Shown: positions 13,930-32,763 of the stretch, piece by piece | How the letters are laid out: the number at the start of each line of letters is the position of its first letter | How positions within the stretch are numbered: the stretch's first letter is position 1 | From: Adineta ricciae | Lineage: Eukaryota | Length of the DNA: 64,000 nucleotides | Direction of reading: 5' to 3' | Assembly: GCA_905250025.1 (NCBI GenBank) | Contig: CAJNOJ010000062.1 | Coordinates: 237,974 to 301,973, forward strand | Made by a program: the position numbers and the translations under genes | Notes under the pieces: generated by a model | Database searches by the model: none | What the model saw: the letters and a program-made list of their open reading frames with translations, nothing else | Told to the model about the DNA's origin: nothing

Positions 13930-15895
13930 CGAACGTATATATCAATTCATTCTTTCTCGATGAACTATTGTCACACAGGATTCTAAAAGATTTTCCGGTT
14001 TGACGTTGTCGCTCGTGCGTGATGATGTTCTTTCGTCAGCGTGCACATATTCACACACACACACATAAACACATTTTCTCATTATTCTTATTTTCCATTT
14101 CTTCTTTTTCTAAGGAAAAGAAAAAAGTGAAAAAAGAAGATGCTTTCTTTTTCTTTTCCTTCACTTTTTCTACTACTACTACTATCACCTGTGAAATGGG
14201 ATGAGACGCATTGCATCAGTGCTGCTTTAATTTTCTTTTCTTGTGCTGCCTGGAAAAATAGATAGAGAAAGAAAGGAAGGGAGGATGACATGGTTACTCC
14301 GGATAGTTGCCATGGAAAGGTTTGGCGATCTTTCTTCTTACGTGAAACGAATTATCTTTCCAACGTTGTAATCAAATCTCGACAGTTGCCTTGTTCCATC
14401 AACTGACATTTCGAAAAAACGATATTGGCAAGAAATAAAAAACATCAACCATTTCATAACTTGTTGCCCTTTTTTTTTCGAGCACATATTCATTCAGTAT
14501 GTCAAAATCGAAATTAGGCCAATAGAGACAGTAGGAAACTTGAAAAGATTAAAATCATAACTGTACAGACGTCACTACTAATTGACATTTGGGAACAACT
14601 GCAATTGTTATTTGATCTCAAGCATATCAATCACTTGTTTTTGATTGACAAGATTCGCCGGGCAAAACAAAGGCAAGCACAACTTTTCTCTCCAACAGAC
14701 AATGCAATGTAAATTTCGTATATATTCCATAATTGATTATTTTCGTGACCCAAATGGTTCATTGAGATTCTTTTTGAATACACAGAAATCAATTCATCAG
14801 TGCTGGTAAATGATGCATCATACTATCCAAACTCTTTTAATCAACGAATTTTTGACATGAATAATCTGTACTTACGCATATAAATCATTTATTTTCCAGA
14901 GAAATAATCTTACAGATTTGTACGACCAACTGACGAGCAAATCTCACACGAGCTCTGTTTTCTTCCTATGTTAAGAAGTAATTAAAGCTAAATTTTGTCG
15001 ACATCAGTGTACTGAAAGTGAACCGATGGTATTTGAAGATATTTTTCTCGATTAATAATATCAACAAGCGTATGTCAACAGACTTTGTGTTGTCTATCTG
15101 TCCTGCACAAATATAAAAAAAAAGATAATCCGCTTGAGTCCTGCATTTCTTTTCTTCAATGATTGCTGTTATCAGGAAAAAAATTCGATGTATTTGTATG
15201 TTCTAAAGAAGCGTCAAGGGTGGATATAATCAGATTAAATTTCGAATAGTGATTAACAATGTTGCATGGAAGGTCAGAAGCACATACGCACACTAATCAA
15301 GAATATATTACTGGAAAAGAAAAAAGAAAGGGAAGCTCTTTTTTCTCACGTAGAATGATAGAAAAACACTATTGTATACAAACGATGTAGATAAGATTAT
15401 TGAGACCGTCCTTGACAAAGAAGAAGCTATACAGTCAGCGTATGGCGTGATAGTCGTTTGCAGGAGAGGTTTTGGTTGAGAGAATTCATTGTCATTCGAA
15501 GAAAATAACATCACATTAACAACATCTTATGAAGACACGGATTTTATGCCTGAGAATGTTTATCTTGAGTTTCGAATGGATTTATCGAGTTGATTGATAC
15601 GATAATTTTTTTATCGCTTTTTTCATCCTAGGTGATAAATTCCATATAAAAGAAAACAAACTGAAGAGAAAGGAAGATATCGACCTCGAATTAATCACTA
15701 TTTGTTATGATGACGTGAGTGACATATAGGATGCAACAATGTGAAAGAGTTCTTATCTTTTATTCTCTGTTAGTTATGTTGAAGATGAAAGTACAAAATA
15801 TAGACCACACACTTAAACTGCTCTTTTGCTCGTGTTTTGCTTTAACAGTATTTATTAGAAGTTCTTCCTAATTCTTTCCAGGAAATTTGCAATTA

Positions 15896-16140
15896 TGAAC
15901 CAACACACGCAGGTCAACAGTGAAACTGATGATAATCACACGCGTGACCGATTAGGTAAGCTCGTCATGTTTAACAACAACATCATAGAAGACCTGTTCA
16001 CCATTGAATTTTGGTAGAACCAACGTCAACACAAGTCGTTTCACCTCGTCGACGTCGTGCTACAACATTGAATTCGTTCGCTTCGTCTGTTATTACTAAT
16101 GTTGTTAAACGACCTCGTTGGTGTTTTCGGTATGTAGTAC
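15896..16140 (+). CDS. Small 2-exon ORF (15896..15956, 16018..16140 approx). It may be a 5' coding exon of the downstream Dispatched-like gene or an independent small gene.
   Basis: ATG MNQHTQVNSETDDNHTRDRL joins at a GTAAGC donor and ttttggtag acceptor to EPTSTQVVSPRRRRATTLNSF…RPRWCF, ending at a GTATGT donor. I found no downstream in-phase acceptor with a good polypyrimidine tract. Confidence 0.2.
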
Positions 16141-17687
16141 ATGTGCGACATCTCGTTTCGCATTTCTCTTCATATCAATATTTATCGAGTAAAACAGTAC
16201 TCGGCTAATCATCGCGAATGTTTTTTTTTCAAATACTCGAATTTATAACCATGTCATCGAGGTATATAGACGAACCTAATTGGCTACCTTGTATCAAATA
16301 CACGTGAGAGAGATCCATTTTTCAATGTCTTGTCTCTTTCTGTTATGCTTGTCAATATAAATCACCCCATTTTTGATCATCCGATCAAGAATGTATTTTT
16401 ATTGTTATTCGAAGAACAAATCGAAGTCCTTGAGATGTTTTATTCATAAACATAGGAGAAATTCGTAAGCGCACTCGAGAACGTCTTTCTTTTCATTGAT
16501 CGAGCTTGTTCGTGGAATGAAGGAGGGTAGAGATAACAACGACAGAAAATAATCTCATGTTTTCGTTTCGTTTGATATGTGTTCTATGCAAAGTCGAACA
16601 TTGAAAAGATACGAAGAAAATGTTTCTTGGCACTTCACGTACTGTTTTTCTTTTCTTCACAATAGTCAGCCGGTCGAGAATTCGACCTGGAGCGAACAAT
16701 GTGCATCGTTGTGTTCCTCTTGAGTCTATTTCTTCCGTTGACTGGAAAGAACGAAATAGAAGAGAAGTACTTAAACGTTCAAGTCAATCTGTTTCTTTCT
16801 CTTCTAAAAATAATCGCTAGAATAAACAATATCATTTCTCGTACTAACTTTCTTTTCCTTTCTGCAAAGATGAGATATAAACATGGTTCTATCTGCTTCG
16901 CGTTTCCGAATTTTCTTTGCTTTTTTTTCTTCGTTCTCTTTCATTTGCACTAAGTTCTCCAAAGAGAATACTGGAAAATAAATGCAATCATTAGATTTCT
17001 TCTTTTTTTCCCTTTCTGTTCTCATGTGATTCAACGGATGATGCATCATTTGCGTTATTAAATTGAAAATCGAGCTGGCCATGCAACAAATTCACTTGTC
17101 AAACATATGCTACTCACCATCAATTTTGTTTATCTTTTCTAGATCTGTTCTAATTTTGTGTTTCTTACCTCGTTTCGTTTCTTTTTGTATTCGTCTATGT
17201 ATTTCGAAAATAATTATTAAGAATCTTTTCTTTCATATCCAGCAATTATCAACATGTATGACGCAGGAGCGTATTTTTACAAAAAGTAAGAAGTTTTTAT
17301 CAATTAACGGATCCTCGAGGAGAAAAAAACCGACAGATTTGATTTCTTTTTCTTCATTACATCAGACCCGATGTGTACATACATTCTAATGAGAACAGAT
17401 GGTTATTCCGATAACATACCAGGTAGATATTTAGTTTTAATCTTGTAAAAACAACATATTCTACTGAACTAACACTGGCTATTGAAAGCATGCAATAACT
17501 AACGAAAAATCTGTGTTTAATATTACCTAGACCATCCTTTTTCTCTAAGCGTATGAAAAAAAAACCTATTCAAGCATGAAGGCTGTATCGTGCGATAATC
17601 TGTTGATATTTACCTATTTCGTTTAATAAATAGATATCCCGTGACTTAGAAAACAACAAAATAGGAGAGAGTAGTCTGTCATTTAAC

Positions 17688-20600
17688 ATGAGTTTTACCG
17701 AGTGGGAAGCAGCAGTAACTGCTCGAATAGGACATTACATTGCGAAACTTATTCTATGGTTTGTAGCTGAATATTTTCATGTTTTGAATGTCGTCTATGT
17801 TTTGCGTTCATAGGTATTCAACTTTCGTGGTTAAGTATGCATGGTGCTTTCTGTTACTTGGATCGATTGTATGTATTTGTCTTGGTTTGACAGCGGTATT
17901 AACACGAGACCTACCGGATTTCAATGATCCGACGAAGGTAACATTTTGTTTTTCTTGTTATTTCGTCGACACGAGATCGATTGATTGTTGATTTTGTCTC
18001 TAGGGTTTTATACCACGTGGTAAATATACGTTGACTTCACGCCTGTTTGTACTGGAACAACTGAAAAATGAATTGGATAAACAACTAGCTGCAGCGAAGA
18101 TTATCAGCAAGAGTAAAAATTTTGCTTCAACTGCGTCACCTTATCGAAGGGATGAACAACACGCGGGCAACGACGATGATGACGATGACTTCGATTATGA
18201 AAATCCAACAGATATGATGAACCTTCATGAAGATCTAAAAGATAATCCAAACGAGTGTGCCTTCTTATCATCAAAGCAAACGACATGTTTGACCAATGCT
18301 CAGGCATATTCTCTATTAAAAAATCAAACAGATCTCCTGAGAATATCGAAAACAATCAAAAAGAAACTTCACAAACCAAATGAACATGTGTGCACTTCAA
18401 TCGACTTGAGTAAGTGTTGTTCATAAAAGCTATTGTATATTTCGAATTCGTCGTTCTTCTGTTCAGATCGTCATTATGAGGTGTACTTCGAAGCGAGTGA
18501 TAAATCATCACCGAATTTATTAACACTTCCTAATCTATTATCATTATGTCGAAAACAGACCGAACTGATCGAATTATTTCAAGTTCATTCAACGTGCCAT
18601 TACACATTACCAGAAATGGTCGCTTATTTTGCCAATAAATTGGATTGTAGTCGAATAACTGAAAGAGATATTCACTCATTTATCAACCGCCTTCAACGTT
18701 GCCATCAAATCTATGATGCAGGCTTGGTTCGTTTAGCGGGCTTGAATCGTTACCGAAAGAAACCGTTAGAGTTGTTTCAATATGATTCGTGTTTTTACAA
18801 TAATTTTACTTTTCTATCATTGGAATATTTACTGGACAAGTCGTTTCTAACGACCAATCAAACATCGCACACAGGTATGTGGTTTTTAAGACCAACTGTG
18901 CCGATGAGAGATGCGAATGGCAGTGAAGTTCATACATCTGATACGGCCTATGATATATTTGTTGAACATTTTCAACAAAATCCCAAATTCGACGACGGAC
19001 AAACACGAATAGCAGGATTGAATTTCTTGGATATTCGTATACCGGCGGCGATGAAACAAATTCGTAATGACATGTTTTTTGTGATCCTAGCTATTACGCT
19101 AATTGTTGCAGTAAGTTGTCCGAGAGTTGATGAATTTGTTAAATTGATTGTCGATTTCATTGTTTAGGTAACAGTTATCTATCTTCGTTCAATAACCGTT
19201 GCATTAATGACAAATGTTTGTGTAGTTCTTTCCTGTGCATGTGCGTATTTTGCATATAAGATCATTTTCGGCATTGATCTTTTTCCATATATTAATTTAA
19301 TGTCATCGTTCATATTGATTGGTATATCATGCGATAATGTGTTCGTTATTTTTGACGCGTGGTATTCAGAAAAATTAGATATTTACAATGAAGCACGTTT
19401 ACAGAATCGTCAAATTGAATTCTATGGTAAATTGACTGAGAAACAGGAAAAACAATATCGTCGCGATCGGGAATATACATCATCGATTATTCGGCGACGC
19501 CTAACATCAAAAAATGATCCAGACCAGCCGCCATTGCAAGAAGGCGAAGAGGAAGAACATTTTGATTTGATTAAAAATACGGATTTGGTTCGGATTATGA
19601 AAGTGAACGAAGATCAAATGATTCAAATGATGGAAGGTGTTCTCAGACACGCGGCAGCAAGCGTGTTCGTTACAAGTTTCACAACATCAGCCGCTTTTTT
19701 TACCAATATGATATCCCGTATTGCTTATGTACAGTTATTTGGTTTATTTATGGTAAGTTCATCGTTTTAGATAAAAGACTGATGATTCTAAGATTTTCGA
19801 AGTCGAGAAAGGATGCGATACATCGTTTTTTATTCTTCTATTTTTCTAGGGTCTTTGTATATTATTCAATTTTCTTATGAACATAACAATGATTGTGTCG
19901 TTTGTAATAATTTATGAAAAGTTTTGTGAGCCCTTATCTGCCCGTCTTGGTATATTCAATCACTTTCCAGATTTGTTCGATAATATCATGTTATCGTTAA
20001 CTCGCCTCAACCATGCGATTTTCACTGTGTATATTCCAAAATGGATAATTAAACTTCGTTATTTTTTGATAGTCATTTTCTTTATATTTGGTATGATTGG
20101 TTTATTCGTTGTCTTCCATCATCCGAAATTGTCTCCGCCAAAATCTCGTCGATATCAATTCTTCCAGCTAACACATCCATTTGAACGCTTCGAATATCAG
20201 ATGCGTGATCAATTCTTATCTTACATTAACGAAGATATAGACAATGTGACAAATCCATTGTTGATCTTTACATTTGGAGTCGAAGAAACGGATTTAGTTC
20301 ATCCGTTTTATCCTGATAAACAAAGATATGTTAACAACAAAACGATAGTTTTCAACGATAAGTTTGATTTTTACGATCCAAAGACGCTGCGATGGCTTGA
20401 TACATTTCTAAGAGATCTCAATCAAAGTGATTTGTTTACTAACGTTCAAGAAACCTATGCACAGTGGTTAACGATTGGTGAGACAAATAACTTTCTCATT
20501 GTTTCTTTAATCAAGATTCATCGTTTTCAGGTGAACTTTTACGTGGATTCCTGACAACAGGCGTTCACAAATATTCTTCATCTGACGATCAAAAGTTTTT

Positions 20601-21923
20601 CGTTCCACCAACTCGAAATGCGACAAAAGTCGCTTTGAATCGATTATTCAAATTCTTCAGCGAATCGAATCAACTGGCAGCGGCTGGTGACAGCAATCGT
20701 GGTAGCGAAAATTTTCGTCTCGGATTTTTACCTGATGCTGAAACACGTCACTTACGTGCCTTTCTATTCATGGTCAACATGAACGTGACATTTAACTCCT
20801 TCTCTGCTCAACATACATACTATCAAAAGTTACACGATTATTTCGATCAACGCTTGGAGCAATTGAAATTATCCGAAGGCGTTCATGGACATGTCTATGA
20901 ACAAGTAAAACATGGGTAAGGAAAAGCATTGAACTGAGTGAACGATTTGTTTTATTCTATTTTTAGTTGGTTTGTCTCGCCTCAATTTCTTTTCTATGAC
21001 CTTATGCGTGAAGTTATACGTGGAACATATACATCTCTGATATTTTCTATGTTGTTCGCCTTTGTTGTACTTCTTCTCACTTCCGGAAATATTGTTATCA
21101 CTCTTTATGCAATTTTAACAATTATTTTCATCATTGCTGATACAGTGGGAATATTTGTATTATGCGGATGGGAACTAAGTATTTTGGAGACAATTATTAT
21201 CATCATGAGCGTCGGTCTGAGTGTGGATTTCAGTAAGAGAACCATTGATTCGATATTTTTTGAGAGAGATGTTTTCGTTACTATTTAGCTGTACATTATG
21301 GTGTGGCTTATATCAAAGCCGATTGGAAACGGAATCAAGCACAAGCACATAGTCGACGAACATCGAATGCCTTGAAACTTCTTCATTTAACGAATGGAGA
21401 CAATCTAAATGAACAGTCTTTGTTAGAGCAAGTCTCGAATCCGAAAGTACATTCGAAAAAGTCGTCAGTATTCACTCGTATTAAAACATGGCACCGACGA
21501 GGTAATCTGCAACGGTTCCGTCGAATCAAAAACAGTCTTATTCGCGTTGGTTCAGCAGTTTTCATTGCTGGTCTAACATCTTTTCTCGCCGGTGTATCCA
21601 TGGCGCCCAGCAAATTGACATCTTTCTCCCAAATGGGCTATTTTCTAATGTTAATTATGTTTGTTAGTTGGTTATATGCTACATGGTTCTTTCTTCCATT
21701 ACTTTCCTTTCTTGGACCAATTGATAAATTTGGTGATATACCGTAAGTGATCTTTTTGACACGAGTCTTTCGAAGAAAATCTTTCTTTTCCTTTTGGTAC
21801 AGATTCGGTAGATTATTTCGTTGTGGTAAAACGTCATCATTACCTGTCGTACAAACAGTGACAACCGATGCCAATGACCAACAGGAAACAAGGGAAAAGT
21901 TCAATGAAGAACAGACAGTTTAG
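17688..21923 (+). CDS. DISP: Dispatched/Patched-family 12-TM sterol-sensing-domain transporter (~1227 aa), 10 exons: 17688..17758, 17814..17937, 18004..18409, 18467..19110, 19168..19752, 19850..20477, 20531..20915, 20967..21232, 21289..21742, 21803..21923
   Basis: TM1, then a large extracellular loop, then a TM2-6 sterol-sensing-like bundle with the TM4 motif GISCDNVF. A second large loop and TM8-12 follow, with GLSVDF (GxxxD) and VHYGVAY. All junctions are in phase and agree with the ORF-track frames 17788, 18031, 18433, 19207, 19877, 20635, 20938 and 21303. Confidence 0.85.
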
Positions 21924-22571
21924 TTCATTCATCTTCCTCTTTCGTTTTCCTACCGCTTGTCTTTCGTTAATCTCGAAGCGAACTAACTAAAATTACCATC
22001 AAATGAAAACATCTTCCGCTAGGTGCTGCTTGTAGTTAACTCAGATAGTTGATTTTGGTCATAAGAAACCAAAGATAAGAAAATCTTCCTAACTGCCTTC
22101 TGCATTTTATTCTTTTTGGTTGGACACGTGCAATAAAAATCGTCGTGACGTGTCTTTTGTCGTCTGCCTTTCTTTTTTCATCTTATTTTAACAGAGAATG
22201 TTTTGTTTCTTTTTGTGTTCAATTATATTCATGCATGTTTGTTTCTTTGTTGTTCTTCCTCTTGGTTTTTACTCATTTGAAATGTATGTATTTTGTCTAA
22301 TGTCAGTAGTCGAAAACAATCATAAATTGATAGTTGAATACTTCTTGGTTTTCTCTTCCTTCTCTTTGGAAAAAAAATATATTCTATGATTATGTTCTAC
22401 GCGAGTTATTCGTAATTTTATGAATTATTTTGTGATTTAGTCGATGTGTGTAGTTTAGCTGAATGTGTTTCATGAGCATTTTTGTATATGGTTGAATATA
22501 TCAATATGTTTCTTTTCGTTTTCTTAAATACAATTCATAACAAGGTAGTCGAACTGTAATTTCTCGTATGC

Positions 22572-23776
22572 TTAAACATTGGTTTCGATCAGTTCATAAA
22601 TTTTCTTCATAAACTGTTCGATGTCGTCTTCGGTGGTGTCGAACGAACACATCAATCTAACTTCACAATTCTTTTTTCTCCACATGTAGAACGGAAAGAT
22701 TGTTGATAATGGTTCGTACCATTGCTGAGGGATTTCTAAGAAAATCGCGCCAGTTTCCACGGGTTTGGTTATCCGAATCTGTGGTTTATTATCTTTCAAT
22801 GGAATTGATTCTAAACGCTTTTTTAATGTTTGAGCCATTGCATTGGAATGTTCACTCGACTTTTTCCACAGATTATTGTCAAGTAGGGCTAAGAATTGAA
22901 CGGCGATGAATCGCTGTTTCGATGCTAATTGCATCACTTGCTTATGACGAAATTTTAAAATACCGCCATCAGCTTCGAGTATCGACTGATTGAACACCAC
23001 TACTGCTTCACCATACATCATACCAGTCTGAAGTAATCAGGAATGATTTGTTTATTATTATCGAACATCAACTATGCGATTTACCTTGGTACCACCCAAG
23101 GAAAGAATGTCCACTCCGACTCCGGTTGTAATATCTCGAAGAGTACAATTCAATGATGAAACGGCATTGAATAATCGTGCACCGTCCATATCTAAGATCG
23201 ATAATCATTTCTATTCATCTTCACAATCGAAAATATCTTACGAAAGTATAAGTTGTATTTCTTTGCTAGAGTGGAGATCTGTTTGAGTTCGTCAAGTGTA
23301 TAAACTGTTCCATATTCCGTCGGTTGGGCAATCGATATCATTCGTGGTTGAGCAGCATGCATATCGCCCAGGCAATCGAGTTTCTCCTCAATTCTGTCCA
23401 TCATGATTTTACCATTTTCATTCGTCGGAATCGATATCAATCGTACACCGGTGACAGTTTCTGGTGATGATGACTCATCCGTAATGATATGTGAAATATC
23501 CGCACAAATGACAGCATGATACGAATGTGTACAAGCGAGGATTGAAAGTACATTAGCACCTGTGCCATTGAAAACGAAAAAGACACCAGGTGTTGAAGCA
23601 TCCGATGCAGAAGTGAATTGTTGTTTAATGACAAGACGTGCTGCTTGAGTAACATCATCATGACCGTAGGCACGCGCATGCGATTTTGACTGTGCTTCTT
23701 TGACCAATGCAGACATTATCTCAGGTAGTACCCCAGCATAATTATCCGATGCAAATGTACGCAAAATATTCGTCAT
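22572..23776 (-). CDS. Low-specificity L-threonine aldolase, bacterial LtaA type (PLP-dependent beta-eliminating-lyase fold), 3 exons: 23242..23776, 23085..23191, 22572..23027
   Basis: The spliced product (MTNILRTFASDNYAGVLPEIM…VFFVFNGTGANVLS…HMDGARLFNA…SLGGTKTGMMYGEAVVV…) aligns along its length with Aeromonas/Pseudomonas LtaA motifs FASDNY, FAFNGT, HMDGARF and GGTKNG. It has two GT-AG introns of 50 and 57 nt, both in frame. Confidence 0.85.
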
Positions 23777-24760
23777 ATTTGATTGGTTTATACAATCCAC
23801 CGAATGACTTCGATATTCTCTCCTCAATTCTATACAACGAACACTTCGAAAGTGTTTAGAAAAGAGAGATGCAGAGGAAAGGAAAAGATAGCGTCTAATG
23901 TGCAAACATAACATGACTTACATTGTTTATAACCAAACTTTCTAAACTAGAGAATGAAAAAATAAAAGCCTATTTCATCACTATCCTGATACGACCGCGC
24001 AAACCTTATCTTTCTGCTGAAATCAAACCTGAGTGAACCAACTACATTTACTCGACAGGTTTTTCTTAATCTTTATTTTTAACCCTGAGTTCATTTACGT
24101 GTGATAATAACTAATTCTGCTTTAACGCATACTCTAATGAAACACACGTTTACTACTCCTACAGATCCGGATAAAAAAAAACAGCAACTGGTTTCTTGCT
24201 TCACAAAACAGAAATCTATTTTTAAACGCTCACAATTAAATAGATGTCTTTCCTTCTTCACATATGTTGAGCCGCAATTTCCACTCTCACCAAGCAACAC
24301 AACGGATGTCAATGATTGCTCATCTAGTTGTACACAGCTATCCAACTATAAATGGATCGTTAACGACATCTTCTCATGGATTTCCTTGTCCAGGCCCACA
24401 AACTCGAGTTGCGCAATTACATACAACACGATCGAAATCTGATACTAGATGTAATGCTTTGACTCTATATATATATATATTTTAGTCGAGAAAATCAATG
24501 AACGAATTTTGTGCGAAGCGAGTGCAATCGCAAAACAGAAGAAAATTACGCACAACCGGCACACAAGTAGTAATATACAACAAGAACAACATCAAGAGGG
24601 AATAAGAACAAAAAATTTTCAATGTGCGAATGTACGAATGAAAACAACAGGCAAAGACATCTTGTTCAGTTCTTCTTTTCGATCATGACAAGAGCAAAAG
24701 AAAACAACTATGATCTATTTATAACTATATATGTATATATCTGAAGGATGTTCTATGCGA

Positions 24761-25374
24761 TTATTCTTGGTCCTCGTCATCCTCTTCATCTTCTTCGTCT
24801 TCTTCACTTTCGTTGGCACCGGAAGCACCAGCAGCAGCTCTTCGAGAGTTGGTTTTTCCAGCAGATGCTTTCGAGTCTCCTAAAATGTCCATATCGTTTC
24901 AAATACCCTTCGCTAGAGAATTTTCTCTTTACCTTCTTCACCATCACCATTTTCTCCGGTATCTTCTTCGTAATCGCCGTCAGATCCGTCGTCGTCTTCG
25001 TCATAATCATCACCTTCTTGATCACCACCAGCTACCTGTAAAACCCAATGAAAAGATTGTCGAGATTTCCTACGATGTCCAAACAAGGCAAACTTACGTC
25101 GTCATCATCTTCATCTTCATCATCATGTAAATGATCATCACCATTCTTATGATTCGAAGATTCATCATCAACTGGTCCATCACCGTTTCTTCCATTGCGC
25201 GCAGCTTTTAAAGCCTTCAATTTCGATGGACTAATATCATCTAGTTCAGCTTCACGTTTTGTGCCTTGAAATGAAAATAAACTTTCAAATTAAACGAACG
25301 TCATTCACATCAACGGATCTACCTTTTGTAGCGGCTACAGTTGGTGCAGAAAGCGCATCGGTTGAATCAGCCAT
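24761..25374 (-). CDS. Small highly acidic (Asp/Glu-rich) protein of ~146 aa, 4 exons: 25323..25374, 25098..25264, 24933..25035, 24761..24879
   Basis: MADSTDALSAPTVAATKG…, followed by D/E-rich runs and ending …EDEEDEEDDEDQE. It has three short GT-AG introns, all in phase. It is prothymosin/nucleoplasmin-like in composition only. Confidence 0.55.
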
Positions 25375-26998
25375 TGATTAAGTTCAGTTATTTAACAAGA
25401 AGAAAATAGTAGTTGTGTAAATGTGCGAAGATAGATGGAAGAATCAAGTCGACATAGGCCCAAAGAGAGAGAATATGACAAGTAGCTATTTCTTCTCTTT
25501 CCTTTTCTTGCAGCGATTGCCGAGTGTGTATATGTGTACGACGTCGTCGTCTGTCCTCGTTCCTTTTATATGAAGCTATGTGTCTGTCCTTTTTACTGCT
25601 GCCGCCGTTCTTTGGCACATAGTCATGTAGCATAATGAGAGAGAAGAAAAATCTTCGTTCGTTCGTTCTCTATTTTCCACCAATCCATCGTGTTGATGTT
25701 AGTCGACAATGATGACGTTACACGGGCAGAATACATGGCAAACAATGGATTTTCTCTATATAGTCAAGAGAAAGCGACGGGCAAAGATGACGACAAGCAT
25801 AAACTGTGAATTGAATAACGTCAGTGCAAGCGAACAAATTTTATAATGTTTTCTTTAGCTCAAAGAATTTGGAAAGCAGCCATTTTCTTCATAATGTATA
25901 ATTGTAGCGAACAAAAACGTCGATATGCTCGTGAATGTGAACTTCTTTCTGCTATGATAGACAATGTCAGAGTTAAACTACGTGATCTCTGCGTGAAATA
26001 TCGAATACTATTCCTATACGGAGGGAAAATAGTGTATTGTAAGCGATCTGTTTTGTCTGTGTGTGTGTGCAGATAGAATATCGAACGAATGTTTTGATGT
26101 ACGTGTTCACCGACGTTATTCTTTCTCTTGTTAAAGTCAATCTACATTCAGGAGTGCTTCGGTATTGCCGAACATACTCAGCCACATTGCTTCACAGGAA
26201 AGATGAAACCTACTCAGATAGGATATGACCAAGTGAGCATCAGAGCATTATTGTATGTTGGTTAAAATGATAGTGTCTGTGTGAGATGTATTGAGAATTA
26301 CTTGTTCATTAAAACCATCTCTTGGAAGGGGAGCGTCTGAATTTTTTATCGGGATTACTATGATGAAAGGTGTATTTGCTCTAAGGATTAATATAACGCC
26401 TGTGTATAATACAATGCAGTCGATTGAGAATATTTAGCTAATTGGTATCTTGATGAGTTCATAAGTATGACAAATCATTTTTGATGATTGAATAATTGAA
26501 GAGATCTGTCCACTCGTCTATCTTGAAAACAATCTGCTCTACTAGCAATAATTCAGATATGATCCTATGGAAAGAAACAATTAACCAATCAAATATGTTC
26601 GATATCAAAGTACATTGATGTAGACTTGATTTCTCCTCCTTCCATGCCAGACAAGAAATGTGATTGATAAAATACGATAAATCATTAATAAATGTGGGAA
26701 TATCTCATTTCAAACATGTCTTTTTGTTCTACGTGTTGTTTTTATCTGAGAAGATGAACAAATAGATACATGTGCGGCAGATTCGATTCGCAGTTAGGTG
26801 TCATTTTCACATTGTCTTATTTGACCAATTGCTTCTCACACAGATGAACGGTTGTTGTCTGTCTATATATATGAAAACAAAGTTCAAAAAAAATTTTTCT
26901 GTATTTGAACAATAGATTTCATTTTCGAAAGAATGAATTTCACGCTCGATTTTATTCATATATATGAAGAAGTCTTAGAAAGTAGTTATTAGCACTTT

Positions 26999-27565
26999 TC
27001 ATTTGGTATTTGGACGGCGAATAGCATTGATAATTTCAGATGCTGAGGTATTACTCAGTTGCTTAACACCATTGTTATTCAATGATATGGATGATGTTGT
27101 AAGATTTGATGATGTTGGTCGCACTGGAACACGGAGAGTACTGTAGAGATTGGTAAACAATGAGGTTAGTAATAGTGGCGCTTGATTTTCTATAACATTG
27201 ATAAGTTTCTTGCCCACCTCGGGATTGAGCATTTCTTTCAGACCAGTGGACATGATCTGTCCAACGATAGTACCGAGACGATCTAACGGAAGAATAGAGA
27301 GAACTGTTGAGGCCGTATCGATTGTATCGAAACTGTTTTGTTGACGACGATTGCGAATTAAACGATCAGCCCAATGGTTCGACGTTCGATTTTTCTTGAA
27401 GAACATCGCATCAGTTCGATTTTCCTTCGGTTCTAAAATAACCATGTGGAATCAGTGAAAATAACTCGTCGAATCATTCTTACCAAAACTGCTCTGAGCT
27501 TGACAATGATCGATTGAAAGATGAAAAGCAAGTGTTGCTAAAATGCACAAACTTATTTTCATCAT
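26999..27565 (-). CDS. Small secreted protein (signal peptide), 2 exons: 27484..27565, 26999..27432
   Basis: Exon 1 is MMKISLCILATLAFHLSIDHCQAQSSF, a hydrophobic signal peptide, with a GTAAGA donor. Exon 2 joins in frame (EPKENRTDAMFFKK…) to the 148-aa ORF. No known domain. Confidence 0.5.
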
Positions 27566-28121
27566 TGTCGTTTTCACTGAAGATGAAAACGTATTTTGTT
27601 GTTGTTCTTATATAGATATCAGCTGTAGAGACAAGCAACCTCTTCATTGATAAATATGTACATTTTACAAGCCGATGGTAATTATATTATTATCGGAATA
27701 ACAAAGCTAGCTCACACTTTTTTAATCATCATCTATTGATCCAACACATGCAAATATATGTCAATGTATTAACATGATTATTTGATCGACAAAGACATCC
27801 GTTAACTTTTTCTTTCATTCGAATCGTAAGTGCAGAATGAGTAATTGATTATTATTTGTTCATCCTCACACCTCGCCAAATCCTTGGTATGATACACTCC
27901 AAGCGATTTTTCATTTGAATTCATGTCCTTATATTCGAATCGCGTAAGAAATTATGATCATTTGTAGATTGAAAGATCATTTCGACTTTATTTTCAAAAA
28001 CAGTTATAATCAAAACAAACGATATAACCTAAACAAAGTCTCGATGATTTCTTTTTTTTTCTTATTTCTTGTTCTTCTCAATAAGAAATGTGATCCGATG
28101 TTTATGTTGTAATTATTTCAT

Positions 28122-28838
28122 TTATTCACGTGGTACATCAACTTGGCCATTATCAATTTGGTTAATAATGTCATGTGGATGTGAACCTTCGACTTTACAG
28201 CCAACTGATTGAGCTGTGCCTAAATAAAACGAACCAAAGTAAACGAATCGATCAAGTCAGAAAACGTGCGTATACCAAGAATTTCTTTTACTGTTCCGTC
28301 GAATGTTTTGGCTAAGGATCGTACGCGCATAATTCGAGCGATTTTGTAGATTTCGTCGAGTGAAACATTACCGTCATGTTTAACTAAACAAGGAATCAAC
28401 TTCAGGGTTAATTCAAAGGAAAATTGAATGTTCGTACTATTTTTTTGTTTCTTTCGGTCACGTGGTGGTTCTTTAAGTGCTTTGATGACAAGCGATGATG
28501 CTGATGGAATGACATCAATCTTGGCATTACGATTTTGGACAGTTAACTTCACTGTAACACGCATGCCTTTCCAGTCACCTGTTGCTTTAGCGATATCATC
28601 ACCAACTTTTTTTGGTGACTAAATAAACAGAAGACATGAGATGCAAATGAACTGCGAACGTGACTTACGAGACCAAGAGGACCGATCTTTGGAGCTAATG
28701 ATGAGCCACCAGGTGCTTCACCTCCAGTAACACGGACCATTACTAAAGGTAAAGGATTGTAAGCATGGAAATAGATCAGTGAGAATCAGCAAGCGATTTA
28801 CTCTCGTATACGGCTGTTGGATCGAATTTTGGACCCAT
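28122..28838 (-). CDS. RPL12: 60S ribosomal protein L12 (uL11), 5 exons: 28802..28838, 28669..28742, 28438..28618, 28276..28383, 28122..28219
   Basis: The spliced 165-aa product [37 protein letters not shown]…[76 protein letters not shown] is collinear with eukaryotic RPL12. Introns are 55-59 nt. Confidence 0.9.
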
Positions 28839-29616
28839 GATACTTTTTTCGAGTGTTTAAAAATGAAAGATCTGCAAAGGAGAAATAATATTATTAGTAT
28901 TTACAAAACTTTCGTTGTTTCTTTCAAAATTGAATATCGATTTGTGATGAGGAACTACTATTTACCTCTAGTGTATGTATTTTATGGAATGCTTTACAGC
29001 GAATCATAATCTGCAAATGTCGATTTCAAGTAAAATATTTGTAGTTTATTTCCAAGTTTATCGATGATCTTTTCAAGTTTTTCTTTTTTCATATTTCAAA
29101 AAATAGGGTTGAGAGACTCTCTTAAATTTCGAATCCTGACATCTGATATAGATGTCGCTAGTTTATCACACCTGAAACTTCGATCTATTCGCTATACATT
29201 TTGCATGCGTCCTAAGAAGACGATAGGCAGGAAACGTGAAGGAAAATCTCCACTGGAGTTTACTTTTCATCACAAGGAAGAAAGTTGCCTTGGTTATATA
29301 TAAAGATCAACTCTTTGAATTAGGTATTATATACTGATGCATATACACGTGCAGCTAAAGCAATTCTTAGGAAAACAGCATGAAATGGATTAGCATTCTT
29401 TCGATCTCAATTATCGAACGACAAATTTTTCATCACGAATAGTCTGCAGGCAAAGTAAATCATAGGCACAAAATACTGAAATACATCAGAAGAAGGCAAC
29501 TAGTCCTATGATTAGATTTGTTCTCTTTGCTTATTTTGTACAACAGAAGCACAGCTGCTGTGTGCTGATATATGTCAAGTATTAATAAGGCTGCATGGAT
29601 GTTTGGGTGAACTGGA

Positions 29617-29904
29617 TTAAGGACGGGCAAAGACGGGGCGTGACAAAGAGGCTGAACGTTTAATTAAACAAACGTAATCAATTATGAAAGATACAATCGT
29701 GAAGAGCCATAATCCTTCACATGCTCGAGCTCTTCGAACGCAAAGAATGGACGGCTTATTCGAAGCTGAAACGATGTTTTGTAAGATGTTCCGATGATCT
29801 CTTTGCTTTACGTCGACTAATGAAGACAATTGCACAAAGTTGTCATTCAAATTCCAACTGAAGGTTTTCTCACTTCTTTCATATGACATCAGATGATAAA
29901 ACAA
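29617..29904 (-). CDS. Hypothetical 95-aa ORF
   Basis: Uninterrupted ORF with an ATG and no recognisable domain. Possibly a small organellar or ribosomal-type protein. Weak. Confidence 0.2.
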   Translation of the reverse strand: MFYHLMSYERSEKTFSWNLNDNFVQLSSLVDVKQRDHRNILQNIVSASNKPSILCVRRARACEGLWLFTIVSFIIDYVCLIKRSASLSRPVFARP

Positions 29905-30202
29905 GAAGGCCTTATATTTAATTACGTAGCTTGTTCATCATGAAAATTCATCATGCGAAGGGATACAAGAAATAATCAATTGGTTTAAGGTGAAAGTTTA
30001 TTTCAGTTATTTTTATCGGTACACTGCCTACAGAGTACTGAAATGAAGAAAGACGAGATATTAAGGAAATTAATTTTTTTTATTTGTCAATTATTTATTC
30101 ATTTCAGCGATACAAGAAAAGGCAGTAACTTTATTAATATTGAAGATCCTTTTGTTGTTCGAAGTACGTCTGTTTCTTCTTGCGTATGTCTTCAAGTAGT
30201 TT

Positions 30203-30760
30203 CTAACGCTTAAGATAAATCGAATTGACAATCTCATTCATCACTTCCATAGGTGGTTTATTTAGTTGTTTACGTTTTTTCAAAGTTTGGTGTCCTCCAG
30301 CATTATAAAACGATGATCGTTTGTTGAATGACACATCGGATGAACCATAGTCATCATCATCATCATCCGCATCTTGACTAAATTGTGTGAACCATTTTGG
30401 CACGATGACATCATTGACACGCGACATAAGAAACTGATTAGCATGCGTCCGTGGTTGTCCAAACCAGACGGATGATGATGGTGCAGAAATCTTTTGTTCC
30501 TGGACGGACGCTGAAGGTGATGACGATGCTGATGCCAATGAATCATACATAAATGCCTCGGAGTTCTCATTCATAGTATTGATTGATTGATGAGGAATTG
30601 ATGATGGTGTAGGTGAAGAGGAAACAGACGGTAAAATTGCAACGAAAAGAACAAATGTCGTACTAATCATCAAAAACTGTGAAAAAAAGGAATGCGAACC
30701 ATTTGAAAAAGGCCGTACGAGATTATATAAAAATGACTTGACGGAGGTTTTGTTTGCCAT
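30203..30760 (-). CDS. Hypothetical Ser-rich membrane-anchored/secreted protein (185 aa) with basic KR/KKRK sites; possible prepropeptide
   Basis: Single ORF with an N-terminal hydrophobic segment (ISTTFVLFVAILPSVSS), a Ser-rich region, an acidic DDDDDD run, and C-terminal dibasic sites (KKRK…KR). No homology recognised. Confidence 0.3.
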   Translation of the reverse strand: MANKTSVKSFLYNLVRPFSNGSHSFFSQFLMISTTFVLFVAILPSVSSSPTPSSIPHQSINTMNENSEAFMYDSLASASSSPSASVQEQKISAPSSSVWFGQPRTHANQFLMSRVNDVIVPKWFTQFSQDADDDDDDYGSSDVSFNKRSSFYNAGGHQTLKKRKQLNKPPMEVMNEIVNSIYLKR

Positions 30761-31704
30761 ATTGTAGATTGATTTTCTAACAGATTGAATAATTTAGAAA
30801 ATAATAGGACAGTTAGTTATCTAGAATAGAACGAAAGCGATTGTATAGTTCGTTTTACCGTGTCGTTCTATCTCTCTGTTCATTAGCTTGACAAGATTGT
30901 CAAGTTATTCCGAAGATTATTAAACATGATGGATAAGTATAATGCTTTTATATTATGAAAAAAAAAAGCTAAGTAGGCGGACAGATAATAGGAAAAAAAA
31001 CAATCTCTACCAATATGGCAACGACATTTAAACAAATCCAGACTTATGTTTATCGTATAATAAGATTGATTGAGTCGTTTTCGTTCGAGACAATCAACAA
31101 TACTGACGTGCACGACTTCTCTCGTCAACAATGTTATCTAACTGCATGGTTTTGTCAGAAAAGTAAATGTAATGATGAATCTGTTGAACATATAGTAAGA
31201 TGTGCAAGTAAAACGAGATGAAGAAGAAAATAAAATAGACTGTAAATCTTACCTACTCTGTATAAAAAGGACGTTAAATGGAAAAAGGAAAGAAAGGCAA
31301 GGAAAATTGTTTCTATCTGCAGTTATTTAATGAATGGGCAAGCACCTACATATATATATAGTGAAATTATATACGCTTCGTTGCCAGTCTTTTGTTTCAA
31401 ATGTTTAATATAATTTTAATATATGAAAAAAAAAGAAACAAACTAGATAAACATTACCGTACTTGCCTTTTCAAATGAACTTCTTGGTGTGATGAAGTTA
31501 AAGTAAAGAAGAAATTCTTCAATTTCACGTTAAGTACGACTAATTCATTGCATAACGGAAACGTTTCTTTTACATGCAACCGGTAATGAATTTCACCCAG
31601 TAAATGTTGTAGGATGATGACAAATACACGAATTATTTAAACATCACGTACTTATACGGAGTTTTTCTAGCCGTTCGAGAAATAGCTACAATCTTAATAG
31701 ACCC

Positions 31705-31730
31705 AGAGAGAGAGAGAGAGAGAAAGAGAA
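31705..31730. repeat. (GA)n microsatellite
   Basis: cagagagagagagagagagaaagagaag run. Confidence 0.8.
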
Positions 31731-32763
31731 GAGATTTTGATGTTCTTGACAATACCATGTTTCTACTTTTAGAACTATTTCAGAGAGAAAGAAAGTGAAG
31801 TCAAATCAATCAGATGATTTATAACAATTACCTGGCAATAAATTATTAATGGAAAAAATTATTATGTCAATATATATATATGAATATACGACAAATTGTA
31901 CTTGAGTTATGATTTTCAACGTAATGATTTGAAAACATGCGAGATTTCTAAGAACAAACTTTGTGTATTTTAGTTCGAAAAGAAGCATCAAATCGATTAA
32001 TTTACTTAACAGCAAAATCATAGTTTTTTTTTACATATGGTCTTTTTTTCTTTGAGTGGGTTGTATTTCGTCTGTTTTCTGCTATTCTTCGCGTGGATAC
32101 GCGTTCGATCGGAAGTCAGTTTTCCATTGACGTTGATATCAAATGATCAATTATGAAGTAACAATTTCTTGATTAAAGAAGACGTAAAACAGATCTTTCC
32201 TGAGTGTCATTTAAGGAATATTGAATTTCGGTAGACAACAAATATTGTTCACCAAGTAATCTTTACGATTTAATTAAAAGACAACCTTCAGCGCTAGAGC
32301 ATCCGGAAATTCAATGATAACTATATGAACTTGTTTCTATACTTTCTACGATGCAATTCACCACATCTACAATAAAAATTCAAGTAGAACGATAGGGATG
32401 TTCCCAAGTGAGCAAACGTCTTTCTTATTTAAGTTATAAAATGATTTGAAAAACTACGCACATTTCATTCTTAAATATAAAAACAGTAAATAAGTGAATT
32501 CTTGTAATTATGTGTAAGTGCTATTTGATGGATATATGATCAAATAGAGAGCACTTTCTGACTTCAAAAGAGCAGCTTCATCGTAATTAGAAAATCTATT
32601 GCTATTGACGTCAATCCGATTAGTTTCTCCGTGTTAAATAAAGTGGAAAGATTTTCAAGTCTATCATCAATGCAAATGTATTTATCAATCGTCCGCAAAT
32701 ATCATTCGTTGTGTATAAATAGAAAATATTCTCTCGAACGATTCGTTCTATACATTCATACTG

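What the first reader, a model, noticed from the sequence alone, without database searches (positions are those of the whole stretch)
22572..23776. Bacterial-type (LtaA-like) threonine aldolase carrying spliceosomal introns: candidate horizontally acquired metabolic gene
The encoded protein aligns motif by motif with the Aeromonas/Pseudomonas low-specificity L-threonine aldolase LtaA (FASDNY…FAFNGT…HMDGARF…GGTKNG). It does not align with the RSDT-motif GLY1/THA1 type that I would expect in animals.

The gene has two canonical 50-57-nt GT-AG introns and the local AT-rich codon usage. It is therefore resident in this eukaryotic genome rather than a contaminant.

This is the pattern expected of an old horizontal transfer that has since been 'domesticated'.
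Basis: partly seen in the sequence, partly recalled or inferred. Interest (0 to 1): 0.6.

Follow-up and report, generated by a model that had tools for sequence, protein, structure and literature searches.

The report
Bacterial threonine aldolase gene in rotifer
This is an intact, intron-bearing threonine aldolase gene that the bdelloid rotifer Adineta ricciae inherited from an ancient bacterial (Bacteroidota-like) donor; it is a real horizontal transfer, but an ordinary case in a group of animals already known to carry thousands of such genes.

Summary
On the minus strand, 23776-22572, three exons and two GT-AG introns (50 and 57 nt) encode a 365-aa PLP-dependent aldolase. It is identical to a public Adineta ricciae protein (CAF1002817.1).

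It belongs to the Pseudomonas putida L-threonine aldolase group (PDB 5vye, E 7e-68). It does not belong to the E. coli LtaE / mouse Tha1 group (E about 1e-12, 16-20% identity).

Orthologues exist only in bdelloid rotifers (Adineta, Rotaria, Didymodactylos). The next relatives are Chitinophagaceae-type Bacteroidota at 50-58% identity. Rotifer sequences are monophyletic (bootstrap 0.97), and rotifers plus these bacteria separate from all other subfamily representatives (0.90-0.97).

The gene lies between metazoan genes, with order conserved in A. vaga (mid-chromosome) and partly in Rotaria. Both introns keep position and phase across Adineta and Rotaria. GC3 matches the neighbours and dN/dS is 0.07-0.17. 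A cDNA-like contig from another bdelloid lacks both introns.

The transfer reading is supported. The "LtaA" label is wrong, because the Aeromonas jandaei enzyme falls in the other group. Bdelloid horizontal transfer is well documented (12.5% of A. ricciae genes are candidates), so interest is low.

The parts
23242..23776 (-). Exon 1 of the threonine aldolase gene (codons 1-178 plus 1 nt). It carries the FASDNY N-terminal motif, the NGTGAN phosphate-binding loop (N70-G71-T72), H96 and H140.
   Evidence: Sequence and splice model. The residues are invariant in alignment A1; in the larger alignment A2 all but H96 are invariant, and H96 is nearly invariant, 90% or more.
23192..23241 (-). Intron 1: 50 nt, GTAAG...TTAG, phase 1, between F178 and H179, just before HMDGAR.
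   Evidence: Position and phase are the same in the second A. ricciae copy (53 nt), A. vaga (55 nt) and Rotaria socialis (64 nt). The intron is absent in Didymodactylos. Read-through ends in a stop codon.
23085..23191 (-). Exon 2 (107 nt, residues 179-214): HMDGAR (D181, R184) through GGTK. The last codon, 23087-23085 (AAG), encodes the Schiff-base lysine K214.
   Evidence: K214, D181 and R184 are invariant across rotifers, Bacteroidota and P. putida.
23028..23084 (-). Intron 2: 57 nt, GTAAAT...TTCAG, phase 0, directly after the catalytic-lysine codon.
   Evidence: Position and phase are the same in the second A. ricciae copy (59 nt), A. vaga (55 nt) and R. socialis (56 nt). The intron is absent in Didymodactylos, and in the cDNA-like contig L006.
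22572..23027 (-). Exon 3 (residues 215-365 plus stop TAA at 22574-22572). It includes R338 in VRLMCSFDT and two rotifer-specific insertions.
17600..21923 (+). Context, approximate bounds: convergent Patched/sterol-sensing-family gene (about 1227 aa, multi-intron). Its stop lies about 650 nt from the aldolase stop. This is the metazoan linkage partner.
   Evidence: Gene tables of L001, L002 and L004; tblastn mapping to the window.
28100..28900 (-). Context, approximate bounds: ribosomal protein uL11/RPL12 gene (PF03946 plus PF00298), upstream of the aldolase on the same strand.
   Evidence: Gene tables of L001 and L002; collinearity.

Best explanation
The window comes from the bdelloid rotifer Adineta ricciae. 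The gene encodes a fold-type I, PLP-dependent low-specificity L-threonine aldolase of the Pseudomonas putida (5vye) subfamily.

An ancestor of living bdelloids acquired it from a bacterium related to Chitinophagaceae-type Bacteroidota. This most likely happened once, before the split of Didymodactylos from Adineta plus Rotaria. A single gene was integrated among ordinary animal genes. Its base composition then drifted to match the host.

The Adineta/Rotaria lineage gained two short spliceosomal introns and four small insertions. The Didymodactylos lineage gained a different single intron.

The gene is kept by purifying selection as a working enzyme. K214 forms the internal aldimine with PLP, and the enzyme cleaves L-threonine or L-allo-threonine, and probably other beta-hydroxy-alpha-amino acids, into glycine plus an aldehyde. 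The N-terminus aligns with the bacterial start and has no extension, so a cytosolic location is likely.

Shown here: the gene model, subfamily, taxonomic distribution, linkage, intron conservation and selective constraint. Inferred: catalytic activity, substrate range, cellular role and donor identity.
For: Gene model and identity with the public A. ricciae protein.

Family: PF01212 at 4e-45; 5vye at 6.8e-68, with 7yvr, 7w0i, 9l9g and 1v72 at 1e-53 to 4e-55. An AF2 model of the 97%-identical second copy P0001 (pLDDT 81, pTM 0.84) is closest to 5vye, TM 0.81-0.86. The catalytic and PLP-binding residues N70-G71-T72, H96, H140, D181, R184, K214 and R338 are invariant in A1.

Distribution: the hits at 58% identity or more are eight proteins, seven from named bdelloids and one unnamed contig that groups with them. 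Next come Sphingobacteriales, Chitinophagaceae and Taibaiella proteins at 51-57%. The closest species genomes are Flavipsychrobacter, Chitinophagaceae LGM1 and lake Bacteroidota MAGs at 50-54%.

NJ trees: rotifer monophyly 0.965-0.975. Rotifers plus these bacteria against all other 50%-cluster representatives: 0.97 with representative P0121 included and 0.90 in the second tree.

Residency: the window is collinear over 19.6 kb at 93% identity with a second A. ricciae contig. dS is 0.125, which equals the published homologue Ks of 0.14 (PMC5916493). Gene order is the same in A. vaga, at 10.08 Mb of an 18.1-Mb chromosome. The Patched-family neighbour is also conserved in Rotaria. Other window genes are a CNG channel, importin-beta, a rhodopsin-family GPCR and malic enzyme.

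Introns are identical in position and phase in four genomes.

Expression and splicing: Logan contig L006 starts with an Illumina adapter. It lacks both aldolase introns and also lacks the conserved last intron of the convergent Patched-family gene.

Selection and amelioration: dN/dS is 0.07-0.17. GC3 tracks each host: 0.37 in A. ricciae, 0.15 in A. vaga, 0.17 in Rotaria.

Only the aldolase matches the plus or minus 3 kb flanks of 80 bacterial loci.
Against: There is no enzymatic assay, and no RNA-seq from A. ricciae itself.

The trees are neighbour-joining with a simple distance, not maximum likelihood. The outgroup representatives are unnamed, so eukaryotic members of the subfamily were not placed explicitly.

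Rotifers are sister to the sampled bacterial clade rather than nested inside it, so the donor is identified only approximately.

Didymodactylos shares neither introns, nor the four insertions, nor flanking genes with the other bdelloids. It is about as distant from the bacteria (0.58) as from the other rotifers (0.57). Support for rotifer monophyly drops to 0.79 under Dayhoff-6 recoding.

No NCBIfam model reaches its cutoff. The best is GntG-family at 77.6 bits against a cutoff of 230, and the LtaE equivalog scores 60.7 against 312. Substrate specificity is therefore open.
Confidence: 0.88

Rival explanations
1. Vertical inheritance. An ancient eukaryotic Pseudomonas-type threonine aldolase was retained in bdelloids and lost in all other sampled animals.
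For: The subfamily does occur in at least one other eukaryote, Leishmania major (1svv; E 2.5e-35, rank 11-12). Named eukaryotes were not placed explicitly in my trees.
Against: The bdelloid proteins are 50-58% identical to Chitinophagaceae-type proteins, but only 26-27% identical to Leishmania TA and 17% to mouse Tha1. No non-bdelloid animal appears among the best 120 hits, although nr proteomes are in the database. Rotifers plus Bacteroidota form a clade at 0.90-0.97. The introns are lineage-specific and differ between bdelloid orders, which fits post-transfer gain.
Confidence: 0.03
2. Bacterial contamination or an assembly artefact rather than a rotifer gene.
For: The protein is bacterial in type, and prokaryotic gene callers have called its exon-3 ORF on short environmental contigs (148-149-aa members of cluster 1).
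Against: The gene has two spliceosomal introns. It lies on a 456-kb contig and an 18-Mb chromosome flanked by intron-rich metazoan genes. It is present as a homologous pair in A. ricciae and in three other assembled bdelloid species whose loci were fetched (A. vaga, R. socialis, D. carnosus). GC3 matches the host in each species.
Confidence: 0.01
3. Two independent acquisitions of the same bacterial gene: one in the Didymodactylos (Philodinavida) lineage and one in the ancestor of Adineta plus Rotaria. This is a variant of the main explanation, not an alternative to transfer.
For: Didymodactylos has a different single intron (after aa 34). It lacks both Adineta/Rotaria introns and all four insertions, and it shares no flanking gene within plus or minus 10 kb. 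Its distance to the bacteria (mean 0.58, minimum 0.51) is about equal to its distance to the other rotifers (0.57). When analysed alone, its position relative to the 112 bacteria is unresolved (0.48).
Against: Rotifer monophyly is 0.965-0.975, and 0.79 under Dayhoff-6 recoding. Rotifers including Didymodactylos share states that differ from the aligned Bacteroidota: HARAYG against HARSYG, DGAR against DGSR, SKQRF against SKTRF, QPTEYG against QSTEYG, and PLS against PLQ.
Confidence: 0.2
4. The enzyme no longer acts, or never acted, mainly as a threonine aldolase. It could be a phenylserine or other beta-hydroxy-amino-acid aldolase or transaldolase recruited to a different pathway.
For: P. putida phenylserine aldolase (1v72) is nearly as close (1.5e-53) as the threonine aldolases. 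The best NCBIfam hit is the GntG family, far below its cutoff. The Adineta/Rotaria proteins carry four insertions absent from the bacteria.
Against: All catalytic residues are conserved. The closest named relatives are annotated as low-specificity L-threonine aldolase. The gene sits among housekeeping genes, not in a biosynthetic cluster.
Confidence: 0.2

Closest known systems
Pseudomonas putida L-threonine aldolase (PDB 5vye) and relatives (Neptunomonas 7yvr, Mycobacterium 7w0i, P. putida phenylserine aldolase 1v72)
   Same: Same subfamily and fold. The sequence match is full-length at E 6.8e-68, 39% identity, with TM 0.81-0.86. The FASDNY, NGT, HMDGAR, GGTK and R-MCS-DT motifs and the catalytic residues are conserved.
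   Different: The rotifer protein is 365 aa against about 346 aa, with four short insertions. It is encoded by a three-exon eukaryotic gene. Its activity is untested.
Low-specificity L-threonine aldolases of Chitinophagaceae/Sphingobacteriales (Flavipsychrobacter, Taibaiella, Chitinophagaceae LGM1, lake Bacteroidota MAGs)
   Same: These are the closest non-rotifer relatives (50-58% identity, full length) and the sister clade in the trees. They are the likely donor lineage.
   Different: The bacterial genes are intronless, encode 339-346 aa, and have 42-54% GC. Rotifers carry consistent substitutions (for example DGAR against DGSR) and insertions. No flanking bacterial gene was co-transferred.
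Animal Tha1 / yeast GLY1 / E. coli LtaE / Aeromonas jandaei LtaA-type threonine aldolases (PDB 8pum, 4lnj, 3wgb, 1jg8)
   Same: Same Pfam family (PF01212), the same PLP fold, and the same reaction class.
   Different: This is a distinct, distant subfamily: E 1e-11 to 2e-5, and 16-20% identity in structural alignment. The NCBIfam LtaE equivalog scores 60.7 bits against a cutoff of 312. This is the type expected from vertical descent in animals.
Bdelloid rotifer horizontally acquired genes as a class (Eyres 2015, PMC4632278; Nowell 2018, PMC5916493; Boschetti 2012, PMC3499245)
   Same: The gene shows all the hallmarks used in those screens: non-metazoan best hits, linkage to metazoan genes, introns, presence across bdelloid families, and existence as a homologous pair. 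Published figures are that 12.5% of A. ricciae genes are HGT candidates, about 80% of clan-supported candidates are shared by all four species analysed, and nearly half were acquired before the families diverged.
   Different: This particular gene is not named in the main text or held supplements of those papers. It lies mid-chromosome in A. vaga. From memory, not tested here, the first described bdelloid transfers were in subtelomeric regions.
Candidate L-threonine aldolase acquired by lateral transfer in root-knot nematodes (Meloidogyne; PMC3511272, PMC5664098)
   Same: It is another animal lineage reported to carry a bacterial-type L-threonine aldolase by lateral transfer, with unknown function in the host.
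   Different: It is an independent event in a different phylum. The sequences were not compared here.
Leishmania major threonine aldolase (PDB 1svv)
   Same: It is a eukaryotic member of the same Pseudomonas-type subfamily (E 2.5e-35, TM 0.77-0.83).
   Different: It is only 26-27% identical, far more distant than the Bacteroidota proteins, so it is not evidence for a shared eukaryotic lineage.

Membership tests
PLP-dependent threonine aldolase / beta-eliminating lyase family (Pfam PF01212, fold-type I) | Full-length match to the family profile above the curated threshold | tested here: met
   PF01212 scores 154.8 bits against a cutoff of 27, E 4.1e-45, over residues 8-296.
PLP-dependent threonine aldolase / beta-eliminating lyase family (Pfam PF01212, fold-type I) | Schiff-base lysine and PLP-binding residues (Asp to the pyridine N, stacking His, phosphate loop, substrate-carboxylate Arg) | tested here: met
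   K214 (GGTK), D181 and R184 (HMDGAR), H96, H140, N70-G71-T72 and R338 are invariant across rotifers, Bacteroidota and P. putida 5vye in alignment A1. The roles of these residues are assigned from general knowledge of threonine aldolase structures.
PLP-dependent threonine aldolase / beta-eliminating lyase family (Pfam PF01212, fold-type I) | Fold-type I aminotransferase-like three-dimensional structure | tested here: met
   The AF2 model of the 97%-identical copy P0001 has pLDDT 81 and pTM 0.84. The top 31 PDB matches are all threonine or phenylserine aldolases, best TM 0.81-0.87.
PLP-dependent threonine aldolase / beta-eliminating lyase family (Pfam PF01212, fold-type I) | Retro-aldol cleavage of L-threonine or allo-threonine to glycine plus acetaldehyde | not testable with these tools
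   This needs recombinant enzyme assays.
Pseudomonas-type L-threonine aldolase subfamily (5vye/1v72 group), as opposed to the LtaE/GLY1/Tha1/A. jandaei LtaA group | Much closer in sequence and structure to 5vye-group enzymes than to LtaE-group enzymes | tested here: met
   The 5vye group scores E 1e-53 to 7e-68. The LtaE, T. maritima and A. jandaei enzymes score 1e-11 to 1e-12, and mouse Tha1 scores 2e-5. Structural-alignment identity is 30-35% against 16-20%.
E. coli LtaE equivalog (NCBIfam NF007825) / animal Tha1 type | Score above the curated equivalog cutoff | tested here: not met
   The score is 60.7 bits against a cutoff of 312. The protein is not a member of this family.
Horizontally acquired, domesticated gene in a bdelloid rotifer | Closest relatives outside the recipient clade are non-metazoan, and the tree groups the gene with them | tested here: met
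   After the bdelloids, all named hits are Bacteroidota. Rotifers plus these bacteria have NJ bootstrap 0.90-0.97. The trees are NJ only, and the eukaryote sampling is implicit.
Horizontally acquired, domesticated gene in a bdelloid rotifer | Absence of orthologues in other animals | tested here: inconclusive
   No non-bdelloid animal appears in the best 120 hits, but only 120 of 8000 are listed. Genomes of monogononts, seisonids and acanthocephalans could not be searched directly.
Horizontally acquired, domesticated gene in a bdelloid rotifer | Physical linkage to genes of clear metazoan origin on long contigs, conserved between species | tested here: met
   The flanks carry a Patched-family gene, RPL12, a CNG channel, importin-beta and a GPCR. 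The order is collinear in A. ricciae (both copies) and A. vaga, and the Patched-family neighbour is kept in Rotaria.
Horizontally acquired, domesticated gene in a bdelloid rotifer | Spliceosomal introns and host-like composition | tested here: met
   There are two GT-AG introns of 50 and 57 nt; the published A. ricciae median is 55 bp (PMC5916493). Their positions are conserved in four genomes. GC3 equals that of the neighbours.
Horizontally acquired, domesticated gene in a bdelloid rotifer | Expression, correct splicing and selective constraint | tested here: inconclusive
   Constraint is met, with dN/dS 0.07-0.17. Splicing is supported only indirectly, by an intron-free, adapter-bearing contig from a different, unidentified bdelloid. 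No A. ricciae transcript data were available.

The most novel reading that the evidence does not exclude
The acquired aldolase may not be a simple backup for threonine catabolism. It may have been put to a use unusual for an animal. One possibility is running toward synthesis, making threonine or other beta-hydroxy-alpha-amino acids from glycine plus aldehydes, for example as building blocks for the horizontally acquired non-ribosomal peptide pathways that bdelloids deploy against fungi (PMC11258130). Another is that it displaced the ancestral animal Tha1 entirely. My data do not exclude either. Substrate range, direction of flux and the presence of a native Tha1 gene in bdelloids were all untestable here.
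Probability: 0.07. Interest if true: 0.55.

Novelty: new member of a known kind. Interest (0 to 1): 0.2.

Why it matters
The gene is a clean, well-controlled example of an ancient bacterium-to-animal transfer. It has a probable donor phylum and shows single-gene integration, full amelioration and strong constraint.

The ancestor was certainly intronless, so it records three spliceosomal intron gains of known polarity. Two arose in the Adineta/Rotaria stem, one of them directly after the catalytic-lysine codon. One arose in Didymodactylos. That makes it a small but usable data point for studies of intron gain and of how foreign enzymes are built into animal metabolism.

It does not change what is known. 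Bdelloids are the textbook case of massive horizontal transfer, the gene is already in public annotations, and bacterial threonine aldolases have been reported as transfers in nematodes.

Tried and rejected
I used the near-identical P0001 and the other orthologues instead.
- My first splice-mapping script had a termination bug and returned nothing. It was fixed.
- I searched for the gene by name, Pfam name or accession in the supplements of Boschetti 2012, Eyres 2015, Nowell 2018 and Nowell 2024. There were no occurrences. Only five papers hold both 'threonine aldolase' and 'bdelloid'. The two I read (PMC5664098, PMC3511272) concern nematode transfers, and none of the five titles concerns a rotifer aldolase.
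- I looked for co-transferred neighbours by comparing all reading-frame segments of window 14-34 kb with the flanks of 80 bacterial aldolase loci. Only the aldolase itself matched.
- I tested whether rotifer monophyly is a compositional artefact. Dayhoff-6 recoding lowers support to 0.79 but does not overturn it. Single-lineage removal tests were uninformative.
- I considered contamination and vertical descent and rejected both (see the rival explanations).
- tRNA and tandem-repeat scans of the window found nothing relevant.
- I could not test whether bdelloids keep a native Tha1/GLY1-type gene. No tool searches a chosen eukaryotic genome, and a Tha1 query would return only its own close relatives among the 120 listed hits.
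Full report
**1. What is in the sequence**

The finding's coordinates are exactly a coding region on the minus strand. The ATG is at 23776 and the stop TAA is at 22574-22572.

Three exons (23776-23242, 23191-23085, 23027-22572) are separated by two GT-AG introns. Intron 1 is 50 nt (23241-23192, phase 1). Intron 2 is 57 nt (23084-23028, phase 0). Together the exons give an 1098-nt CDS and a 365-aa protein. Reading through intron 1 runs into a stop codon.

The spliced protein is identical from end to end to the public proteins CAF1002817.1 and CAF1167696.1 (UniRef100_A0A814GXL8) of Adineta ricciae, carried on a contig of 456 kb.

**2. What the protein is**

Pfam assigns it to PF01212 (beta-eliminating lyase / threonine aldolase) at E 4e-45.

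Against solved structures, the best sequence matches are:
- L-threonine aldolase 5vye at 6.8e-68, full length
- 7yvr, 7w0i and 9l9g
- phenylserine aldolase 1v72, at about 1e-54
- 1svv at 2.5e-35

E. coli LtaE, T. maritima, A. jandaei and mouse Tha1 reach only 1e-12 to 2e-5.

An AlphaFold model of the 97%-identical second copy (pLDDT 81, pTM 0.84) gives the same two tiers, with organism names attached. The first tier is P. putida, Neptunomonas and Mycobacterium aldolases and P. putida phenylserine aldolase at 30-35% identity, with Leishmania at 26-27%. The second tier, at 16-20%, is Aeromonas jandaei L-allo-TA, E. coli LtaE, T. maritima and mouse Tha1.

The label 'LtaA (Aeromonas/Pseudomonas)' mixes the two groups, because the Aeromonas enzyme belongs with LtaE and Tha1.

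The residues that bind PLP and substrate in threonine aldolases are N70-G71-T72, H96, H140, D181, R184, K214 and R338. All are invariant across rotifers, Bacteroidota and the P. putida enzyme. No NCBIfam equivalog cutoff is reached, so the exact substrate range is open.

**3. Who else has it**

A search of 5.8 billion proteins returns seven proteins from named bdelloid rotifers:
- second A. ricciae copy, 97%
- A. vaga, 85%
- A. steineri, Rotaria socialis, R. sordida and Rotaria sp., 76-78%
- Didymodactylos carnosus, 58%

It also returns one unnamed contig at 72%. The list then passes directly to bacterial proteins of 339-346 aa at 51-57% identity. Where these are named, they come from Sphingobacteriales, Chitinophagaceae, Chitinophagales and Taibaiella.

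A scan of one genome per prokaryotic species gives the same picture. Flavipsychrobacter, Chitinophagaceae bacterium LGM1 and freshwater-lake Bacteroidota MAGs are at 50-54%. Microscillaceae and Cyclobacteriaceae are at about 50%. Bacteroidales and other phyla are at 41-48%.

I built neighbour-joining trees with 200 bootstraps. Besides the rotifers and a reconstructed P. putida 5vye outgroup (the first tree also had 7yvr), the first used 56 top bacterial hits with the full-length 50%-identity cluster representatives, and the second used all 112 bacterial hits with a smaller set of representatives. The results were:
- All nine rotifer sequences are monophyletic (0.965-0.975).
- The bacterial top hits form their own clade (0.955 and 0.65).
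- Rotifers plus these bacteria are separated from every other representative, at 0.97 with representative P0121 included in the first tree and 0.90 in the second.

The nearest outside representatives that carry names are Bacteroidota or Kapabacteria. No non-bdelloid animal or other eukaryote appears near the clade.

**4. Evidence that it is a resident, working rotifer gene**

(a) Linkage. The window is collinear over 19.6 kb, at 93% nucleotide identity, with a second A. ricciae contig. For the aldolase, dS between the copies is 0.125. This matches the published Ks between A. ricciae homologues (0.14, against 1.27 for ohnologues; PMC5916493). The two copies are therefore the homologous pair.

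The gene order is Castor/Pollux-like channel, RPL12, three small genes, aldolase, then a convergent Patched-family gene. The same order is found in A. vaga at 10.08 Mb of an 18.1-Mb chromosome. Rotaria socialis keeps the aldolase and Patched-family pair. Elsewhere the window holds a CNG channel, importin-beta, a rhodopsin-family GPCR and malic enzyme.

(b) Introns. Both introns have the same position and phase in both A. ricciae copies, A. vaga and R. socialis, with lengths of 50-64 nt. These lengths are typical for the species (published median 55 bp; PMC5916493).

(c) Composition. GC3 is 0.37 in A. ricciae, against 0.31-0.39 for neighbouring exons. It is 0.15 in A. vaga and 0.17 in Rotaria, so the gene follows each host.

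(d) Constraint. dN/dS is 0.07-0.17 in five pairwise comparisons.

(e) Splicing. A Logan contig from run SRR22100213 begins with an Illumina adapter. It carries a 72%-identical orthologue with an uninterrupted reading frame across both intron sites. It also lacks the conserved last intron of the convergent Patched-family gene. The simplest reading is assembled cDNA from another bdelloid, which would mean the gene is transcribed and spliced at these sites. This evidence is indirect for A. ricciae itself.

(f) Extent of the transfer. Only the aldolase matches the plus or minus 3 kb flanks of 80 bacterial aldolase loci. A single gene was integrated, or a single gene survived.

**5. History**

Didymodactylos carnosus differs from the other bdelloids in several ways:
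- It has one intron at another site (after aa 34, phase 1, 68 nt).
- It lacks both Adineta/Rotaria introns.
- It lacks the four short insertions that Adineta and Rotaria carry relative to the bacteria.
- It shares no flanking gene within plus or minus 10 kb.

The trees keep it with the other rotifers, at 0.97, or 0.79 after Dayhoff-6 recoding. It also shares several rotifer-specific residue states.

I therefore favour one acquisition before the bdelloid radiation, followed by independent intron gains. Two gains fall in the Adineta/Rotaria stem, one of them immediately after the catalytic-lysine codon. One gain falls in the Didymodactylos line. I leave about 20% for two separate acquisitions from related donors.

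A single acquisition fits the published finding that nearly half of foreign genes predate the divergence of bdelloid families, more than 60 Mya (PMC4632278). It also fits the finding that about 80% of clan-supported candidates are shared by the four species analysed (PMC5916493).

**6. Mechanism**

Shown: this is an intact gene for a Pseudomonas-type, PLP-dependent aldolase with all catalytic residues, under purifying selection.

Inferred: K214 forms the internal aldimine. The enzyme cleaves L-threonine or L-allo-threonine, and probably other beta-hydroxy-alpha-amino acids, to glycine plus an aldehyde. The N-terminus aligns with the bacterial start without an extension, which suggests a cytosolic enzyme.

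I could not test whether it supplements or replaces a native Tha1-type enzyme.

**7. Comparison with what is known, and novelty**

Bdelloid rotifers are the best-known animal recipients of foreign genes. In A. ricciae, 12.5% of genes were flagged as candidates, using the same criteria applied here (PMC5916493).

A bacterial-type L-threonine aldolase has also been listed among lateral transfers in root-knot nematodes (PMC3511272, PMC5664098).

This specific rotifer gene is annotated in public databases. I did not find it named in the text or held supplements of the main bdelloid HGT papers.

It is a new, or at least undescribed, member of a very well-known kind. Interest is 0.2.

**8. Verdict**

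Noticed in passing
window about 32760-36000 (+), exons at 33806-34342 and 34368-34946: The Castor/Pollux-like RCK ion-channel gene, about 9 kb from the aldolase, shows the same pattern. The only animal hits are bdelloid rotifers (Didymodactylos 67%, Rotaria 54%, A. steineri 56%, several paralogues). Next come bacterial TrkA/Kch/'POLLUX-CASTOR' proteins at 40-45% (Leptospiraceae, Bacteroidia, Chitinophagales, WOR-3). It is probably a second bacterial-origin gene in the window. One oddity: the A. ricciae and A. vaga orthologues seen in the L001 and L002 gene tables did not appear in the hit list.
   Followed up: partly
window 59103-60536 (-): Two abutting ORFs (220 and 256 aa) are joined across an in-frame stop. 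The public model is 458 aa, so a short intron is implied. They encode a Pol-beta-type nucleotidyltransferase-domain protein with an unannotated C-terminal half. Only 43 homologues exist among 5.8 billion proteins. Nearly all are bdelloid, with many paralogues per species, some fused to ankyrin repeats. This is a bdelloid-restricted expanded family of unknown function.
   Followed up: partly
L006 (Logan SRR22100213 contig, 2298 nt): This adapter-led contig joins the intron-free aldolase orthologue and the intron-free 3' end of the convergent Patched-family gene across a gap of about 630 nt. This implies overlapping or read-through 3' transcripts of the two convergent genes in that bdelloid. The species is not identified. 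In the trees it branches outside Adineta plus Rotaria but inside bdelloids.
   Followed up: partly
window 14349-33828 against L001: A second A. ricciae contig (CAJNOR010001590.1) is collinear at 93.1% identity over 19.6 kb. For the aldolase, dS is 0.125 and dN/dS is 0.11, so this is the homologous (allele-like) copy. No ohnologous (about Ks 1.3) A. ricciae copy appeared among the hits, so the ohnologue seems to have been lost.
   Followed up: partly
window 57853-58893 (+); 1605-2798 (-); 36952-37755 (-); 24400-27500 and 30200-30800 (-): Several ORFs or genes have no Pfam assignment. They are an F-box-like 346-aa ORF (weak, E 0.012), a 397-aa ORF containing a 9-nt TGATGATGG repeat (1684-1735), a 267-aa ORF, and the three small conserved genes between RPL12 and the aldolase, which are also called in A. 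ricciae and A. vaga.
   Followed up: no
alignment A1, window protein residues about 27-28, 59-63, 233-239, 294-299: Adineta/Rotaria aldolases carry four short insertions relative to Bacteroidota, P. putida and Didymodactylos. The unidentified bdelloid (P0007) has three of the four. The insertion at 233-239 lies in a lower-confidence stretch of the AF2 model. The functional meaning is unknown.
   Followed up: no
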